Assembly (NCBI RefSeq): GCF_963853765.1
Contig: NC_088856.1
Span: forward strand, 1,612,001 to 1,676,000
Length of the DNA: 64,000 bases
Direction: 5' to 3'
From: Magallana gigas
Taxonomy: Eukaryota
Shown here: positions 45,035 through 57,000 of the stretch, piece by piece
Numbering within the stretch: position 1 is the first letter of the stretch
How the letters are laid out: each line of letters opens with the position of its first letter
Made by a program: the position numbers

Positions 45035-48000
45035 CGTAACAAAAATTTCTGTCGCATTTATCTCAGCAACTATTTATCGCAGATGCTTGAAATTTTAACA
45101 CAGTGTTTGTTAAGGCATGCCATATCGTGGGATATTTTTTTGTACCAATCGGACGCCAACTTCCTGTTAAATGACGACTTTGTTTATTTTTAGCAAAACT
45201 TTTCAAACAAATTTTTGTCAAAGAATTCTCAGCAACTGTTTATCGCAGATGCTTGAAATTTTTACACAGTATTTGTATAGGCATGCCATATCGTGGGATA
45301 TATTTTTGTACCAATCTGACGTCAACTTCCTGTTTAATGAGTACTTTGTTTATTTTTAGCCAAAATTTTCAAACAAATTTCCGTCAAAGATTTCTCAGCA
45401 ACTATTTATCGCAGATGCTTGAAATTTTAACACACTATTTATATAGTCATGCCATATTGTGGGATATATTTTTGTATCAATCGGACGTCAACTTCCTGTT
45501 AAATGATAACTTTGCTTATTTTTGAACCAAAATTTTCAAACAAATTTTTGTCAAAGATTTCTCAGCAAATATCTATTGCAGATGCTTGAAATTTTTACAC
45601 AATATTTGTATATGCATGCCATATCGTGGGATATATTTTTGTACCAATCGGGCGTTATCTTCCTGTTCAATGACGACTTTGCTTATTTTTTAACCAAAAT
45701 TTTCAAACAAATTTTCGTCAAAGATTTCTCAGCAACTGTTTATCGCAGATGCTTGAAATTTTAACACACTATTTGTTTAGGCATGCCATATTGTGGGATA
45801 TATTTCTGTACCAATCGGATGCCAGCTTTCTGTTAAATGTCGACTTTGCTTATTTTGCATATTCACATCAGAGCGGGGGTATCACTAGTGAGCATTGGCT
45901 CACAGATATCTTGTTACTTTTTTATTCCTCATCATATTACCATTGTCAATTTGCAATTCATCATTGCAAATTTTCCTCAAAATGTTACCTTTACAAATTA
46001 TGAGTTAGTATAAAAGCATGACATCACAAGTTATCTTTACAATCTGTGATAAATGTCTTATTACCATTGCCATATATTGTATGATATATTACCTGTACTA
46101 TGCATAATAAATTTTAATAATTACTTTTACAGTTTTCGATGTTACTTTCATATAGAAACTTCATGTTACATGTATAATATATTGCAGGGTCTCCTGTTTA
46201 TGGAACAGAAAGAGTTTCCTCCCCATGGACACCTGCACACAGGGAATATCATGGTTAACAATGGAGTGTGCCAGTAAGACAATTCACTCATAGATAACTT
46301 ATCATCTTTTCTTGTTGTATTCCTCTCTTTGGAAAGATACTGGTATCTATTATTATGTTTTTCTGAATTTGTTTTTCTTTCTTTAGAATCGCAGGTTATG
46401 AGAATACATTTATTGGTTTGAAATCCAAGCTCTTGGCGATGGCCAGGAGAAAGTTAAAGGATCAACCGGAGGCTATTGACGTCCTCTCGTTTGGTAAGGT
46501 GCCAGAATGAATTACAGTAAAACATGGTTATAGCAAACATACTTACAATGAATAAACGCTACAATGAAGTGACACGTTGTAAACTTGACAGATATATTGA
46601 ATTACACTTAAAACAAAGCAAATTGGCCGGTCCCTGGCACTCGTTATAAATGTGTTTTACAGTAATGGCTTTTGAGATGTGATACCTATAATTTTTTTAT
46701 AAGAATTTCAAAATACCAGTAGATATACTTGTAATTAATTATGATGATATCTAGGTTACATATTTTACAAGGCCTGTTACCTTTGATTTACCTGTGACAT
46801 TTTCTAGGTTACATATTGAATAAGATGCGGTACCTTATATATTGGTCAGAAATTGTATAAGATTTGGTATCTGTAATTGCCTTTGATGTTTTCTAAGTCA
46901 TGTATAGTGTGGTGTGTGTACTTATATACTTGTTCCTTTGATTTACCTATAACACTTCGTAGGTTACATTTTGTAGAGATGTGGTACCTGTAATTTAGCT
47001 ATGGCAATTTCTAATGCATATTATAGTATAGTATAAGGTGTGTACCTATATATACCGGTACCTGTACCTGCATCTAAGATTTACTTTTGATATTTCTAGG
47101 TCACATTTTGTACGAGATGTGTGTCGGGACAGAACTTGACTCCCCCCACCCTCAGCCTCATCACCTTAACATCATCAACAACCCAGCTGTGGTGTCAGTG
47201 AGTCACCTTATTTAATCATTTTTGTTATCAGGTTTGTTTGTAGCATAACTTTAAAGTCCCATCCGCTGGTAAAGGAGCCATTATATTGGTCAACCAAATA
47301 TTGTCATATGCAAAAAGAATTGAACAACCATATTAAAGAAATTTTGACTTTGACTCTACAGTGTAAAAATTTAAAAAAAATTGTCCATATTCAAGCAATA
47401 GGTGCATGTTCTCACCTTGATGTTCAGTTGGTTTGTTTTTTTTATATAATTTATTGTTTTTGATCCATTACATATCAACATTAAATTACATTTGTAAATC
47501 AAGTCATCATAAACTACACACACAAGTATACTTCTCTCTCACACAAATACATGTACAATAGTGGTAAGTGGTCACTTTGCTTTAAAAAGATAAATGAATC
47601 AGAAAAATATTTAAAAAATACAAGAAATAACATAAATGAGACAAATTTAATATTTTTTCCATGAAAACCGTAATTGTTTGAAATTGTTCAGCCTTTAATA
47701 TTTTTTTTAAGATAGCAGCATATTTTTTTCTGTATCATGATTTTTTTTTTATTGGCTGAATAATCCAAAAAATTTGGGTGATGTTCAGTTAGTCCTCAAT
47801 GACTATCTGCATCAATTTATAATAAGATGTGCATTTAGTAAATGTAGAATTGTGTATCAATAATGACTTAAGCTAAATAAGCTTTTCACTTTGATATGTT
47901 AGCTATTGTGTATCAATTATGACCCATCATGGATTAGCTTATCACTTTGATCTGTTAGCTATTGTGTATCAATTATGACCCATCATGGTTGATCACTTTG

Positions 48001-54000: not shown

Positions 54001-57000
54001 ATCCAACAATATAGGAAAAACCCTGAGAGAAAAATCAAAATATGATAACAAATAGTGAAGGCATTTCACAATATGTGTCACAGAAAATGCCAGTTGTAGC
54101 ACAGCACTCTGAAAAATTTTACAAATACAACAGACATATAGAACACAGTGATAGATATAACATAGCACTAGCACATAAAAAACACAGCACACTACAGCAT
54201 TGCACAATTGCATCACATAGAAGACATTTTAATATCACAGAGGACTGATACAAGTTGATTATCACATCTTATTCACAATTAGAGGGCACACTGAAGGATT
54301 GCACAAACACATCACATATCACAAACTCATATGGATATCCAAGAGCACTAACATCAGATGAATATCCCAAAGCACTATCACAAGCACAGTACACTGAAGC
54401 ATCGCACAAACACATCAGATATCACAGACTCAGCACACACAGAAATCACAGAGCACAATCACCAGAAGCAGGGCACACTCTTGATGATACCGGCTGATCT
54501 TCTCTTGTTGACTCCTGATGACCTCCGGCTTCTGTTCCTCTTGTTGGAGAACCACTTCTTGACCTGCTCTTCCCTGACTCCTCCTTTCCTGGCCAGGTCC
54601 TGGATGACGTGAGAGGGTGGGTAGGGATGATCTCGGTGACTGTAGTACCACTCTTCCATCAGCTGAACGGCCTTCTGGGACAGGGATGGTCTGCTACGGA
54701 GGTTGCTGTTACTGGAGGTCTGTGGCTGTGGGGGGACGGTCTGTGTGGGTTGGGGTGTGGGAAGGTTGTCCTCCAGGAACTGAAGACTGCTCTCCACACG
54801 GTCCATGATGCGGTGGTGGGTGATGTTGTAGTGTTGGTTTATGCTCTCTCTGATGTGGAGGGGCTGGTTGGAGTTCTGGTGAAGGGCACAGTAGCGGTCA
54901 GTCTCCACCTGGGCACTCTGGTACTTGAAGAAGGAAGACAGGTCGTTGATCTCCTGGGGATGGAAGGAACGGAGGGTCTTGAATCTGTGCAGAAGTTGCT
55001 GTTCACGGTCGGCTGGTGAAATCTCTGGTTGGACGGACTTGATGAGCACAGAAGGAGTGGATGAGTCGGCTTCTGAGCGGAAGATGGACTTGAGAGCAGT
55101 GAAGATCTCTGTGGAGGAGATGGTGCTGTCACTGAAGATCTTCTTTGGACTGGTCGGTGGAAGACACTGAAGAGCAAGGTGGAGGTCAGAGTGAAGGTCG
55201 TGGGATTTCTCTGGTGTGGGATGGTCACTGAAGAGGGAGGTGAGGCACTCGTCGAATCTGGTCTCTGCCTGACTGGTGTCCACGCTGGTGTTGAGTAGGC
55301 TGCTTGAGGGTTCAGGGGTGGGTGGGGCGTCATCAAAGATGGTGGCCTTGATGATGTCCTCAAGAGTGGTGGTGAAGTTGATGGCTACGGCAGGGGAGGA
55401 TGAACAAGAAGCCATGGTGGATCACGGAATCGCAAACTTGACACTGAACAGACACTGAAGCACACTAATGCACTATTGACACTAAAGCACTTTTTCACTA
55501 AGATTTCACTAGAACACCTTTTCACAAACACATTGATAGAGCACTTTGGTAACACACAACACACTAATCAACAAATGCACAATATATACTTGTACACTTA
55601 ATGAAGAATTATATTGAAGGTAAATGATAGCACTGTGATAGGTAAGATTGGATCACAATGGGTGAATGATGACCAGCCAGCTTGCTGGGTCTTTATATAG
55701 GCCTGGATTCTGATTTATTTCAGCTTGGGTTGCAAACAAAAAATTTCATTGGCTTGTGAAAGTCTTAACTGTGTTATGATTGGTTAATTTGTCCAATCAA
55801 TTAATAAGCCTGTCAATGATTGGTGGATCCATCCCTTTAATTGGTCAGATAGGCCAGCTTTGGGTGATTAGTGGGTAGCTTGGGTTGGTCACCTTGTGTG
55901 TGAAGATCAAAGTAAAAAGCTAATCCATGATGGGTCATAATTGATACACAATAGCTAACAGATCAAAGTGAAAAGCTAATCCATGATGGGTCATAATTGA
56001 TACACAATAGCTAACAGATCAAAAAGAAAGGTATTGGTAATAATTCATAATTGATACACAAGTACCAGATCAAAGTGTAAAATACCAACAATGTTAGATA
56101 CAGGTAACATAATGATGATATGCAATTTAAATAAAGAGTAAGTAGTGATTTAAATTAATTTTTTATCCAATGTGAGTTGCAGTTCAAAATGGACAGTTGT
56201 GCAACACTGAAAAACACACTAAAGCTTTTATTCAAAATTAGTATAGATTTTTAAACATTTCTGTTTAAGATGAATCAAGTTTTGCACAATGTGAAATTAG
56301 ATCTTTTGAAATAATTCCCATTGCCTGGGCTGGTGTTCAGAGAAAGAGGTCACCATTTTCAGACTTAACATTAACACCCATTGGTCACTTTATCTTTGTA
56401 GCTTTTTCTTGTCAGTTATTATAAATTAAACACCAGTATCAGAGTGATGTAGAAACCATTCTGTGAAAATCCAATTTATTCCCAAAGATCAATGAGATTG
56501 ACGAACAAGGATGCTGATTAAGAGTGCCATCTTGAGTACATGCTGTTGGTGCAAGTTTTGATGATAGCATTGACATAGAACATGACATTCAACCATCTGT
56601 GAAAATCCTTATTATGTATGATAGAAGATTCCTATTATATAGATTAATGATACTGATGAACAAGAATGTTTATAAAGAGTTTAATCTTGTGTGTTGTATG
56701 TGTTAAGCTTTATTGATATTATATTTTAGGACCTAATTATTATTACATAACTATTATTATATACTACCTATTACATATAGAAGAAGATTCCTATAATTTA
56801 GACTGATGAACAAGGATATTGGTTGAGAGTGTCATCTTGTGTGTTGTAGGTGCTGAACTTCATCTTTGGTGAAGACACGGATGGAAGATACCCTTCTCTA
56901 ACAGAGGTGAGACTCTTTAATGCCAATTGTGATGGAATGATTTAACCATGTATTTCATTCCTATCAAAATATTAAATGTTCCACATAAAACGGTTTGTCA

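What the first reader, a model, noticed from the sequence alone, without database searches (positions are those of the whole stretch)
47940..56040. Host pre-mRNA would fold the homeobox palindrome into a ~1.7-kb dsRNA stem: a possible built-in silencing switch
Seen: both arms lie in the same intron of a plus-strand transcript. Any Slob-like pre-mRNA therefore contains sense copy A and antisense copy B, which are highly complementary across promoter, 5' UTR and CDS. Established: long intramolecular dsRNA is a substrate for ADAR editing and for Dicer (hairpin endo-siRNAs). Inference: transcription of the host could generate small RNAs against both homeobox mRNAs, or interfere transcriptionally with copy B. 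This would make host and nested genes mutually exclusive, for example early embryo versus differentiated tissue. The convergent homeobox transcripts could add further dsRNA by read-through.
Basis: inference. Interest (0 to 1): 0.68.

Follow-up and report, generated by a model that had tools for sequence, protein, structure and literature searches.

The report
Inverted twin homeobox genes inside an intron
Two nearly identical, intact early-embryo-type homeobox genes lie tail to tail inside one intron of an oyster kinase-like gene, so the host's unspliced RNA could fold into a 1.7-kb double strand, but nothing in the sequence shows that this is used as a switch.

Summary
Arms at about 47946-49650 and 54300-56023 form a 1.7-kb inverted repeat: 1613 Watson-Crick and 25 G:U positions in 1742 aligned columns. 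The spacer is 4.65 kb. Each arm carries a full promoter, 5'UTR and intronless CDS of a PADRE-type TALE (SPILE-like) homeobox gene known only from bivalves. Both ORFs are intact and under purifying selection (dN/dS 0.20). Both arms lie in intron 10 (47198-56849, GT..AG) of a plus-strand slob2-like pseudokinase gene. That gene was mapped exon by exon with reference proteins. With the spacer shortened, the minimum-energy fold pairs 1630 of 1705 arm-A bases with arm B.

Published surveys find no dedicated endo-siRNA pathway (no siAgo, siDicer or endo-siRNAs) in molluscs, oysters included, so the Dicer leg is unlikely. ADAR editing is plausible. Divergence follows ordinary gene constraint: upstream 99%, CDS 95%, 3' end 88%, synonymous divergence 0.14. 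Wobble-preserving changes are not in excess (25 versus 22). Copy A's own poly(A) signals are sense to the host and may stop it before arm B.

Best reading: a young inverted gene duplication whose dsRNA potential is a by-product. No expression, small-RNA or synteny data could be checked.

The parts
41648..57824 (+). Host gene: slob2-like / PXK-like inactive kinase with an N-terminal membrane helix and a C-terminal WH2 motif. It has 14 exons: tblastn segments at 41648-41689, 42036-42110, 42687-42782, 43373-43456, 43622-43771, 44076-44192, 44505-44606, ~46188-46274, 46385-46493, 47100-47197, 56850-56906, 57130-57195, 57311-57372 and 57500-57824.
   Evidence: tblastn of P0021 and P0022 against the window. 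Splice sites of exons 9-14 were read. WH2 Pfam match 1.5e-12 on the last exon. Source names 'slob2', 'PX domain-containing protein kinase-like' and 'Slowpoke-binding protein'.
47198..56849 (+). Host intron 10 (9652 nt, GTGAGT...TTGTAG), which contains the whole palindrome.
   Evidence: The exon 10/11 junction (..VVS|VLNFIFG..) is present in P0021, P0022 and P0023.
47946..49650 (+). Arm A of the inverted repeat (sense to the host).
54300..56023 (-). Arm B of the inverted repeat (its gene is antisense to the host).
48543..49487 (+). TALE homeobox copy A. Intronless CDS of 313 aa plus stop, with the PADRE motif and EQVKKWF in the homeodomain.
54456..55415 (-). TALE homeobox copy B. Intronless CDS of 318 aa plus stop.
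48075..48337 (+). Core promoter of copy A inside the longest perfect run (263 nt). It holds four CCAAT boxes (48120-48216) and TATATAAAG (48265-48273). The transcription start is inferred near 48297. The mirror positions in arm B are 55889-55627.
   Evidence: Sequence read; perfect run. The motif names are recalled consensus sequences, not tested.
49651..54299 (.). Spacer (loop) of 4649 nt. It is AT-rich with no ORF that matches a family. It holds a 56-bp array, an A26 run and 32/16-bp tandem repeats.
47849..48060 (+). 56-bp tandem repeat (3.4 copies) at the outer edge of arm A.
55904..56081 (-). 56-bp tandem repeat at the outer edge of arm B, in inverted orientation.
50522..51111 (+). Third array of the same 56-bp repeat (10.5 copies) inside the spacer, in the same orientation as the arm-A array.
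49881..49890 (+). Candidate poly(A) signals of copy A (overlapping ATTAAA/AATAAA). They are sense to the host and lie 231 nt beyond the end of arm A.
54228..54233 (-). Candidate poly(A) signal of copy B (ATTAAA on the minus strand).

Best explanation
This is a young inverted duplication (a palindrome) of one complete transcription unit of a bivalve PADRE-type TALE homeobox gene. That gene belongs to the SPILE-like class, which oysters and mussels express from egg to blastula. The palindrome is nested in intron 10 of a slob2-like pseudokinase gene of an oyster of the Crassostrea/Magallana group.

Shown: the arms, the spacer, the two intact ORFs, purifying selection on both, the host exon map, and the thermodynamic preference for the stem.

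Inferred: both copies work as ordinary protein-coding genes driven by identical CCAAT/TATA promoters. The complementarity of the arms is a by-product of recent paralogy and decays at the neutral rate wherever gene function does not constrain it. The nearly identical outer 450 bp reflect promoter constraint, an arm-to-arm gene-conversion tract, or both.

If host polymerase reads through the whole intron, the stem should form in the nucleus. Its most likely fate in a mollusc is A-to-I hyper-editing and decay with the excised intron. It is unlikely to be diced into siRNAs that silence the homeobox mRNAs in trans.
For: Anatomy.

Genes: Pfam Homeobox_KN on both copies. All 20 of 20 database relatives are bivalve proteins; the best is M. 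gigas K1RAG1 at 89%. The literal PADRE motif and QVKK, which Paps et al. give for TALE clades VI/VII, are present (PMC5322547 passages).

Both copies functional: no stops. Sd=26 over S=209 and Nd=20 over N=733 give dS 0.136, dN 0.028 and ratio 0.20. Residues 46-218 have 11 synonymous and 0 non-synonymous differences.

Gene-like gradient of identity: upstream 98.9%, 5'UTR 95.5%, CDS 94.8%, 3' end 88.2% with 21 gap columns of 174.

No pairing-preserving bias: 25 G:U against 22 A.C transitions, p=0.77.

A and B are sisters in the tree (support 86/84), with the M. gigas protein next. Copy B keeps the M. gigas state at 14 of 26 differing columns, copy A at 7, neither at 5.

Host intron. Folding.

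Mollusc small-RNA biology: PMC12479628 (passages) and PMC11114477 (abstract). Editing of young-repeat dsRNA in metazoans, in a survey that included C. gigas: PMC9989829 (passages).
Against: The outer part of the arms is far more alike than the neutral estimate allows. It is 98.9% identical upstream, with a 263-nt perfect run over the promoter, against about 12% divergence at synonymous sites and in the 3' end. Promoter constraint or gene conversion would explain this, but selection on pairing there cannot be excluded.

The G:U versus A.C test has only 47 transitions and little power.

The whole intron, arms included, is strongly CpG-depleted (observed/expected 0.06-0.30, against 0.57 for the window and 1.09 for the neighbouring Kelch ORF). 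This would fit germline methylation and so possibly germline transcription across the palindrome.

PMC12479628 itself allows that rare cell types or conditions could process long dsRNA.

No RNA-seq, small-RNA or editing data, and no other oyster genome, could be examined. The full 9.65-kb intron was not folded; the spacer was cut to 300 nt.
Confidence: 0.65

Rival explanations
1. Host transcription makes a 1.7-kb intronic hairpin, which Dicer cuts into endo-siRNAs or ADAR marks. These silence both homeobox genes, so host and nested genes are mutually exclusive.
For: All structural preconditions are met. 1238 nt lie in perfect runs of at least 21 nt, and about 1350 nt of the stem overlap the inferred mRNAs. 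CpG depletion of the intron is compatible with germline transcription or methylation. PMC12479628 leaves open processing in rare cells.
Against: No siAgo, siDicer or endo-siRNA signal was found in molluscs, including M. gigas and C. virginica gonad and soma (PMC12479628 passages; PMC11114477 abstract). There is no excess of pair-preserving substitutions, and neutral sites have diverged by about 12%. The longest perfect run (263 nt) is mostly promoter, lying largely upstream of the inferred start at about 48297, so most of it is absent from the homeobox mRNAs. Editing an excised intron does not act on separate mRNAs. Copy A's sense poly(A) signals lie between the arms.
Confidence: 0.07
2. A palindrome maintained at the DNA level. 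Arm-to-arm gene conversion keeps the two promoters and genes alike, as in the gene-bearing palindromes of primate sex chromosomes (recalled). This gives doubled, co-regulated dosage of an early-embryo factor. RNA pairing plays no part.
For: Upstream identity is 98.9% and includes the 56-bp repeat, which is unlikely to be constrained base by base. This compares with dS 0.136. A 173-nt perfect run lies inside the CDS. A and B are sisters although nearly as far from each other (93%) as from M. gigas (90-91%).
Against: Most of the arm is not homogenised: there are 26 synonymous differences, a 5-codon indel, and an 88%-identical, gapped 3' end. Conversion, if any, is limited to tracts. With one species, the timing cannot be tested.
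Confidence: 0.15
3. The stem serves the host. Pairing of the arms loops out about 8 kb, bringing the 5' splice site (748 nt before the stem) and the 3' splice site (826 nt after it) to an effective distance of about 1.6 kb. This would help splicing of a long intron.
For: The geometry. Spliced host transcripts across this junction exist in relatives (P0021-P0023). The idea of intron-bridging helices is recalled, not tested.
Against: There is no pair-preserving bias. The arms are whole genes whose conservation is explained by coding and promoter constraint. Nothing links the stem to splicing efficiency.
Confidence: 0.04
4. Assembly artefact: two alleles of a single gene, or a chimeric read, assembled as an inverted pair.
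For: Oysters are highly heterozygous (recalled). Only one M. gigas protein of this type was found in the protein search.
Against: The arms differ by 82 substitutions and 47 gap columns, including an in-frame 15-nt indel. They are separated by 4.65 kb of unique sequence without N and end in different flanks. The only N run is at 3037-3188. Chimeric-read palindromes would be near 100% identical.
Confidence: 0.03

Closest known systems
Spiralian-specific TALE (SPILE) genes, PADRE-type: TALE clade VI/VII of Paps et al. 2015, SPILE A/C of Phuangphong et al. 2021
   Same: The homeodomain is TALE-class with a three-residue loop extension (Homeobox_KN). The literal PADRE motif and QVKK are present (PMC5322547 passages). 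Relatives are found only in bivalves (20 of 20). Lineage-specific duplication is typical of the class (PMC8524836 passages).
   Different: An inverted, intron-nested pair is not described in the passages I read. Phuangphong et al. say many bivalve A/C genes are not in tandem. Expression of these two copies is unknown. Assignment to a named C. gigas gene (TALE9-13) could not be made, because the supplements are closed.
Drosophila hairpin-RNA (hpRNA) loci and mouse-oocyte inverted-repeat endo-siRNA loci (recalled; the mouse oocyte Dicer isoform is mentioned in PMC12479628)
   Same: An inverted duplication of protein-coding sequence that one transcript could fold into a long stem complementary to the parent mRNAs.
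   Different: In those loci the arms are non-coding relics and a dedicated or special Dicer/Ago route exists. Here both arms are intact, selected genes with their own promoters, the hairpin is only an intron of another gene, and molluscs lack the siRNA machinery according to the published surveys.
Intronic inverted repeats (for example inverted Alu pairs) as ADAR hyper-editing substrates (recalled; editing of young-repeat dsRNA in metazoans, in a survey that included C. gigas, in PMC9989829)
   Same: Young, highly similar inverted copies lie within one Pol II transcript a few kb apart, giving a long, nearly perfect duplex.
   Different: The repeat units are genes, not transposons. The stem is about 1.7 kb rather than about 300 bp. 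Editing here is predicted, not observed.
Gene-bearing palindromes with arm-to-arm gene conversion on primate X and Y chromosomes (recalled)
   Same: Two inverted copies of a gene flank a unique spacer, and part of the arms is near-identical.
   Different: The arms here are about 1.7 kb, not tens of kb or more, and most of their length has diverged at the neutral rate.
Nested genes in introns of a host gene (general class, recalled)
   Same: Independent transcription units lie inside an intron, one sense and one antisense to the host, with potential for transcriptional interference.
   Different: Two paralogous nested genes in mirror orientation, so the host intron is self-complementary.

Membership tests
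TALE-class homeobox | Homeodomain with a three-residue extension between helices 1 and 2 (Pfam Homeobox_KN) | tested here: met
   PF05920 at 3.9e-10 (A) and 1.8e-10 (B), above the 24-bit cut-off; PF00046 also matched.
PADRE-type TALE (clade VI/VII; SPILE A/C) | [quoted passage not shown] | tested here: inconclusive
   The strings ISPADREQQLL and EQVKKWF are in both copies, and the paper names both motifs (PMC5322547 passages). No profile of the ~87-aa domain was available, and no tree with named SPILE genes was built.
PADRE-type TALE (clade VI/VII; SPILE A/C) | Restricted to molluscs or bivalves | tested here: met
   All 20 of 20 hits at E<=0.001 are bivalve proteins. The search only reaches relatives that share 5-residue words.
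PADRE-type TALE (clade VI/VII; SPILE A/C) | Expression from egg or cleavage to blastula | not testable with these tools
   Reported for C. gigas TALE1-4 and 7-14 (PMC5322547) and for mussel SPILE genes (PMC8524836). Not known for these two copies.
Slob / PXK-like pseudokinase (host) | Kinase-like domain | tested here: met
   Single exons gave no Pfam kinase hit. However, they align at 60-100% to P0021 and 48-85% to P0022, whose precomputed domains include PF07714/PF00069.
Slob / PXK-like pseudokinase (host) | C-terminal WH2 motif | tested here: met
   PF02205 at 1.5e-12 on the last exon.
Slob / PXK-like pseudokinase (host) | N-terminal PX domain (PXK proper) | tested here: not met
   No PF00787 is listed for P0021 or P0022. 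Exon 2 encodes a hydrophobic helix instead. The host is therefore filed as slob2-like, not PXK.
Hairpin endo-siRNA locus | Long inverted repeat within a single transcript | tested here: inconclusive
   The repeat and its single-intron position are shown. Whether the host reads through copy A's sense poly(A) signals is unknown.
Hairpin endo-siRNA locus | The organism has a siRNA-class Dicer and Argonaute, and 21-nt duplex small RNAs map to the arms | not testable with these tools
   The literature reports absence in molluscs (PMC12479628 passages; PMC11114477 abstract). No reads were available.
ADAR hyper-editing substrate | Stable long dsRNA in a nuclear transcript | tested here: met
   Duplex energy -3234 kcal/mol, against -670 to -764 for 5 shuffles. 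The arms alone fold at -433 and -527. 1630 of 1705 bases are paired across the arms.
ADAR hyper-editing substrate | Clusters of A-to-G mismatches in RNA reads | not testable with these tools
   No transcriptome reads were available.
Gene-converting palindrome | Arm-to-arm identity well above the neutral divergence of the duplication | tested here: inconclusive
   Met for the outer ~450 bp (about 99%). Not met for the CDS synonymous sites (dS 0.136) or the 3' end (88%).

The most novel reading that the evidence does not exclude
In oocytes or at the end of cleavage, read-through of the slob2-like intron yields the 1.7-kb hairpin, or simply the antisense copy-B arm. The miRNA-type Dicer or the abundant mollusc piRNA machinery converts it into small RNAs that clear or cap the SPILE-type homeobox mRNAs. 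This would be a genomically hard-wired timer for shutting off lineage-specific cleavage-stage transcription factors, in a phylum thought to lack endo-siRNAs.
Probability: 0.05. Interest if true: 0.75.

Novelty: new member of a known kind. Interest (0 to 1): 0.3.

Why it matters
SPILE-type TALE genes are lineage-specific regulators of early blastomere fate in spiralians, and how they duplicate and stay co-regulated is an open question. This locus shows one concrete route. A whole transcription unit was copied in mirror image, and the two promoters are still base-for-base identical over 263 nt. The locus is also a clean natural test of what a mollusc cell does with a long endogenous dsRNA, given the reports that the phylum lacks endo-siRNAs: one could measure editing, small RNAs and intronic polyadenylation here. 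As it stands, the silencing-switch idea is a hypothesis without supporting evidence, and the structure itself is an ordinary kind of young inverted duplication.

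Tried and rejected
I then sent single ORFs or exons. Only the last exon gave a family, WH2.
Copy number in M. gigas and C. virginica therefore stays unchecked.
- A degenerate third gene copy behind the internal 56-bp array was sought with word-7 blastn. The only hit was 113 columns at 68%, 48300-48407 against 52109-52220, E=2e-4. 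I rejected it as a copy.
- My first idea, that the 100% identical protein block (residues 46-218) was a gene-conversion tract, was rejected. It carries 11 synonymous differences, so it reflects purifying selection.
- Rfam found no family in 41000-58500 at gathering thresholds.
- A blastn of intron 10 against the rest of the window found only three short matches outside the intron, two of them a dispersed repeat at 51139-51264.
- Synteny in other oysters could not be checked.
- The full 9652-nt intron was not folded because of the run-time limit. I used the arms plus 300 nt of spacer.
- Literature searches for a prior description returned nothing on this locus: 'slowpoke-binding protein / homeobox / oyster' and 'inverted duplication / nested gene / intron / hairpin / host gene / homeobox'. 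The Hong Kong oyster homeobox paper had no relevant passage.
- The supplements of PMC5322547 and PMC8524836 (gene positions, alignments) are closed. They may show whether C. gigas TALE11/12 or another adjacent pair is this locus.

Full report
OBSERVATION

The window is AT-rich eukaryotic DNA (GC 0.28-0.46 per 2 kb) with one N run at 3037-3188, which was left untouched. The repeat finder reports three collinear inverted pairs that together span 47993-49522 and 54421-55971 at 93-99% complementarity. blastn joins them into one alignment, 47883-49652 against 56081-54290, at 92.0% over 1807 columns.

A MAFFT alignment of arm A with the reverse complement of arm B shows identity rising from background (15-24 of 50) to 43-50 of 50 between about 47946 and 49650, then falling again. 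Within those limits there are 1742 columns:
- 1613 Watson-Crick
- 25 G:U
- 57 mismatches
- 47 gap columns

There are 21 perfect runs of at least 21 nt (1238 nt in all). The longest are 263 nt from 48075 and 173 nt from 48906. The spacer is 49651-54299.

WHAT THE ARMS ARE

Each arm carries one long ORF: 48543-49484 on the plus strand (313 aa) and 55415-54459 on the minus strand (318 aa). Both match Pfam Homeobox_KN and Homeodomain, and they are 294/318 identical with one 5-residue indel.

All 20 of 20 database relatives at E<=0.001 are bivalve proteins. The best is Magallana gigas K1RAG1 (318 aa, 89%, full length), followed by Crassostrea virginica (80%), Saccostrea, Ostrea, mussels, pearl oysters and scallops. 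I therefore take the window for an oyster of the Crassostrea/Magallana group. This is an inference; the species was not determined.

Both proteins contain the literal string PADRE and the QVKK motif in helix 3. Paps et al. give both motifs for the mollusc-specific TALE clades VI/VII (PMC5322547, passages). Phuangphong et al. list a PADRE domain as the feature of SPILE clade A/C (PMC8524836, abstract and passages). In C. gigas the novel TALE genes 1-4 and 7-14 are expressed from egg to blastula. In a mussel, A/C and B clade genes start zygotic expression at the 4-16-cell stage.

Upstream of copy A I read four CCAAT boxes (48120-48216), TATATAAAG (48265-48273) and a Kozak-like ccaccATGG at 48543. 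All the promoter motifs lie inside the 263-nt perfect run. The motif names are recalled consensus sequences. Candidate poly(A) signals lie at 49881-49890 for A and at 54233 (minus strand) for B, both beyond the arm ends. So each arm is essentially promoter, 5'UTR, complete intronless CDS and the first ~165 nt of 3'UTR, and the two genes converge.

BOTH COPIES ARE LIVE GENES

Nei-Gojobori counts give Sd=26 of S=209 and Nd=20 of N=733, so dS is 0.136, dN is 0.028 and the ratio is 0.20. Residues 46-218 have 11 synonymous and no non-synonymous differences.

In a maximum-likelihood tree of 10 proteins, A and B are sisters (support 86/84) with M. gigas next (99/98). At the 26 alignment columns where A and B differ, the M. 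gigas protein agrees with B at 14, with A at 7 and with neither at 5.

THE HOST

The spliced model of the host was examined exon by exon only.

The last exon (57500-57824) has a WH2 motif (Pfam 1.5e-12). Searched alone for longer proteins, it retrieved proteins that their sources name 'probable inactive serine/threonine-protein kinase slob2' (Saccostrea echinata), 'PX domain-containing protein kinase-like protein' (Ostrea edulis) and 'Slowpoke-binding protein' (Tegillarca). It also retrieved an unnamed 478-aa transcript-derived protein, P0021.

tblastn of P0021 and P0022 against the window gives 14 collinear plus-strand segments from 41648 to 57821. For P0021 there was one other hit under E=1, on the minus strand at E=0.49. 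For P0022 there were two other weak plus-strand hits, at E=0.05-0.2.

Exon 10 is 47100-47197 with donor GTGAGT. Exon 11 is 56850-56906 after the acceptor TTGTAG. The junction ..VVS|VLNFIFG.. is present in P0021, P0022 and P0023. Intron 10 (9652 nt) therefore holds the whole palindrome, 748 nt after the 5' splice site and 826 nt before the 3' splice site. No PX domain is recorded for these relatives, and exon 2 encodes a hydrophobic helix, so 'slob2-like' is the better label.

WOULD IT FOLD?

| Quantity | Value |
|---|---|
| RNAduplex energy of the two arms as plus-strand RNA | -3234 kcal/mol |
| Same with 5 shuffles of arm B | -670 to -764 kcal/mol |
| Arm A folded alone | -433 kcal/mol |
| Arm B folded alone | -527 kcal/mol |
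| Construct with spacer cut to 300 nt, minimum free energy | -3306 kcal/mol |
| Arm-A bases paired to arm B in that fold | 1630 of 1705 |

In vivo it additionally needs the host polymerase to pass copy A's own poly(A) signals, which are in sense orientation between the arms.

IS THE STEM SELECTED?

Identity by region:

| Region | Identity |
|---|---|
| Upstream | 98.9% |
| Inferred 5'UTR | 95.5% |
| CDS | 94.8% |
| 3' part | 88.2%, with 21 of 174 gap columns |

The 3' part and the synonymous sites agree on about 12% neutral divergence. The rest is what coding and promoter constraint would leave.

Of 47 transitions, 25 leave a G:U pair in the plus-strand RNA and 22 leave A.C (binomial p=0.77). 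So there is no sign that pairing in the host transcript is protected, although the test is weak. The outer ~450 bp are too alike for neutral divergence. Promoter constraint, a gene-conversion tract or both are the simplest explanations.

WHAT A MOLLUSC WOULD DO WITH IT

A survey of 32 molluscs, with small-RNA data from M. gigas and C. virginica gonad and soma, found miRNAs and abundant piRNAs. It found no siRNA-class Argonaute or Dicer and no Dicer-signature read pairs above the level of a siRNA-free annelid. The authors note that this holds despite many opportunities for dsRNA from inverted repeats, and they suggest editing as an alternative fate (PMC12479628, passages). Formaggioni et al. 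conclude that the endo-siRNA proteins were lost in all Trochozoa (PMC11114477, abstract only).

A-to-I editing that targets dsRNA from evolutionarily young repeats is reported across metazoans, in a 22-species survey that included C. gigas (PMC9989829, passages). Two oyster ADAR papers were seen only in the search listing (PMC9044936, PMC6651903).

The ADAR leg is plausible but would act on an excised intron, not on the separately transcribed homeobox mRNAs.

OTHER OBSERVATIONS BEARING ON ORIGIN

The outer ends of both arms lie in a 56-bp tandem repeat: 47849-48060, and inverted at 55904-56081. A third array of 10.5 units of the same repeat lies in the spacer (50522-51111), next to a short dispersed repeat. 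This suggests, but does not show, that the repeat mediated the rearrangement.

The whole intron, arms included, is CpG-depleted (observed/expected 0.06-0.30, against 0.57 for the window). On the recalled link between CpG depletion and germline methylation, this may mean the region is methylated in the germ line.

VERDICT

The rest of it is untestable here.

The best-supported reading is a young mirror-image duplication of an early-embryo TALE gene nested in a slob2-like intron, with dsRNA potential as a by-product.

Unchecked: expression, small RNAs, editing, synteny in other oysters, read support for the assembly, and the papers' supplements.

Noticed in passing
window 47849-48060, 50522-51111, 55904-56081: Each unit of the 56-bp tandem repeat contains AGATCAAAG, which I recall as a near-consensus TCF/LEF (Wnt/beta-catenin) site. 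13 of the 14 exact matches in the window lie in these three arrays, against an expected 0.96. An array of such sites directly upstream of a cleavage-stage-type TALE gene could be regulatory. It could equally be just a satellite carried by a mobile element.
   Followed up: partly
window 47198-56849: Intron 10, including both homeobox genes and their promoters, is strongly CpG-depleted (observed/expected 0.06-0.30). The window average is 0.57 and the neighbouring Kelch ORF is 1.09. This is compatible with germline DNA methylation of the whole host gene body.
   Followed up: partly
window 8632-10713 (-), 24338-26419 (-), 1-588 (-): Three related Mab-21 nucleotidyltransferase (cGAS-like receptor type) reading frames with a long C-terminal, weakly TPR-like tail. 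The first is interrupted by two in-frame stop codons and the second by one. They may be pseudogenes, or the frames may be split by short introns.
   Followed up: partly
window 16983-19027 (+): A hAT-type transposase-like frame: DUF4371 (3.5e-18) followed by the hAT dimerisation domain (1.3e-12). The two parts are in different frames.
   Followed up: no
window 45061-45856: A 167-bp tandem repeat of 4.8 copies, 88% matches, inside host intron 7. Its length recalls the common oyster ~166-170-bp satellite, but this is recall and was not compared.
   Followed up: no
window ~33000-41365 (-) and 59734-61937 (-): Neighbouring genes on the minus strand. One has LRR and guanylate-kinase exons (LRGUK-like) and starts about 300 bp from the host's first exon, head to head. 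The other is a BTB-BACK-Kelch gene downstream of the host.
   Followed up: partly
window 41648-57824 versus P0021: The unnamed transcript-derived protein P0021 differs from the window's host exons at a handful of residues, for example MSN/MSD, TGG/TDG, NFG/NSG and PSQ/PSK. It comes from a very close relative or another allele. Ostrea edulis isoform X2 (P0023) lacks the exon-6 segment.
   Followed up: no
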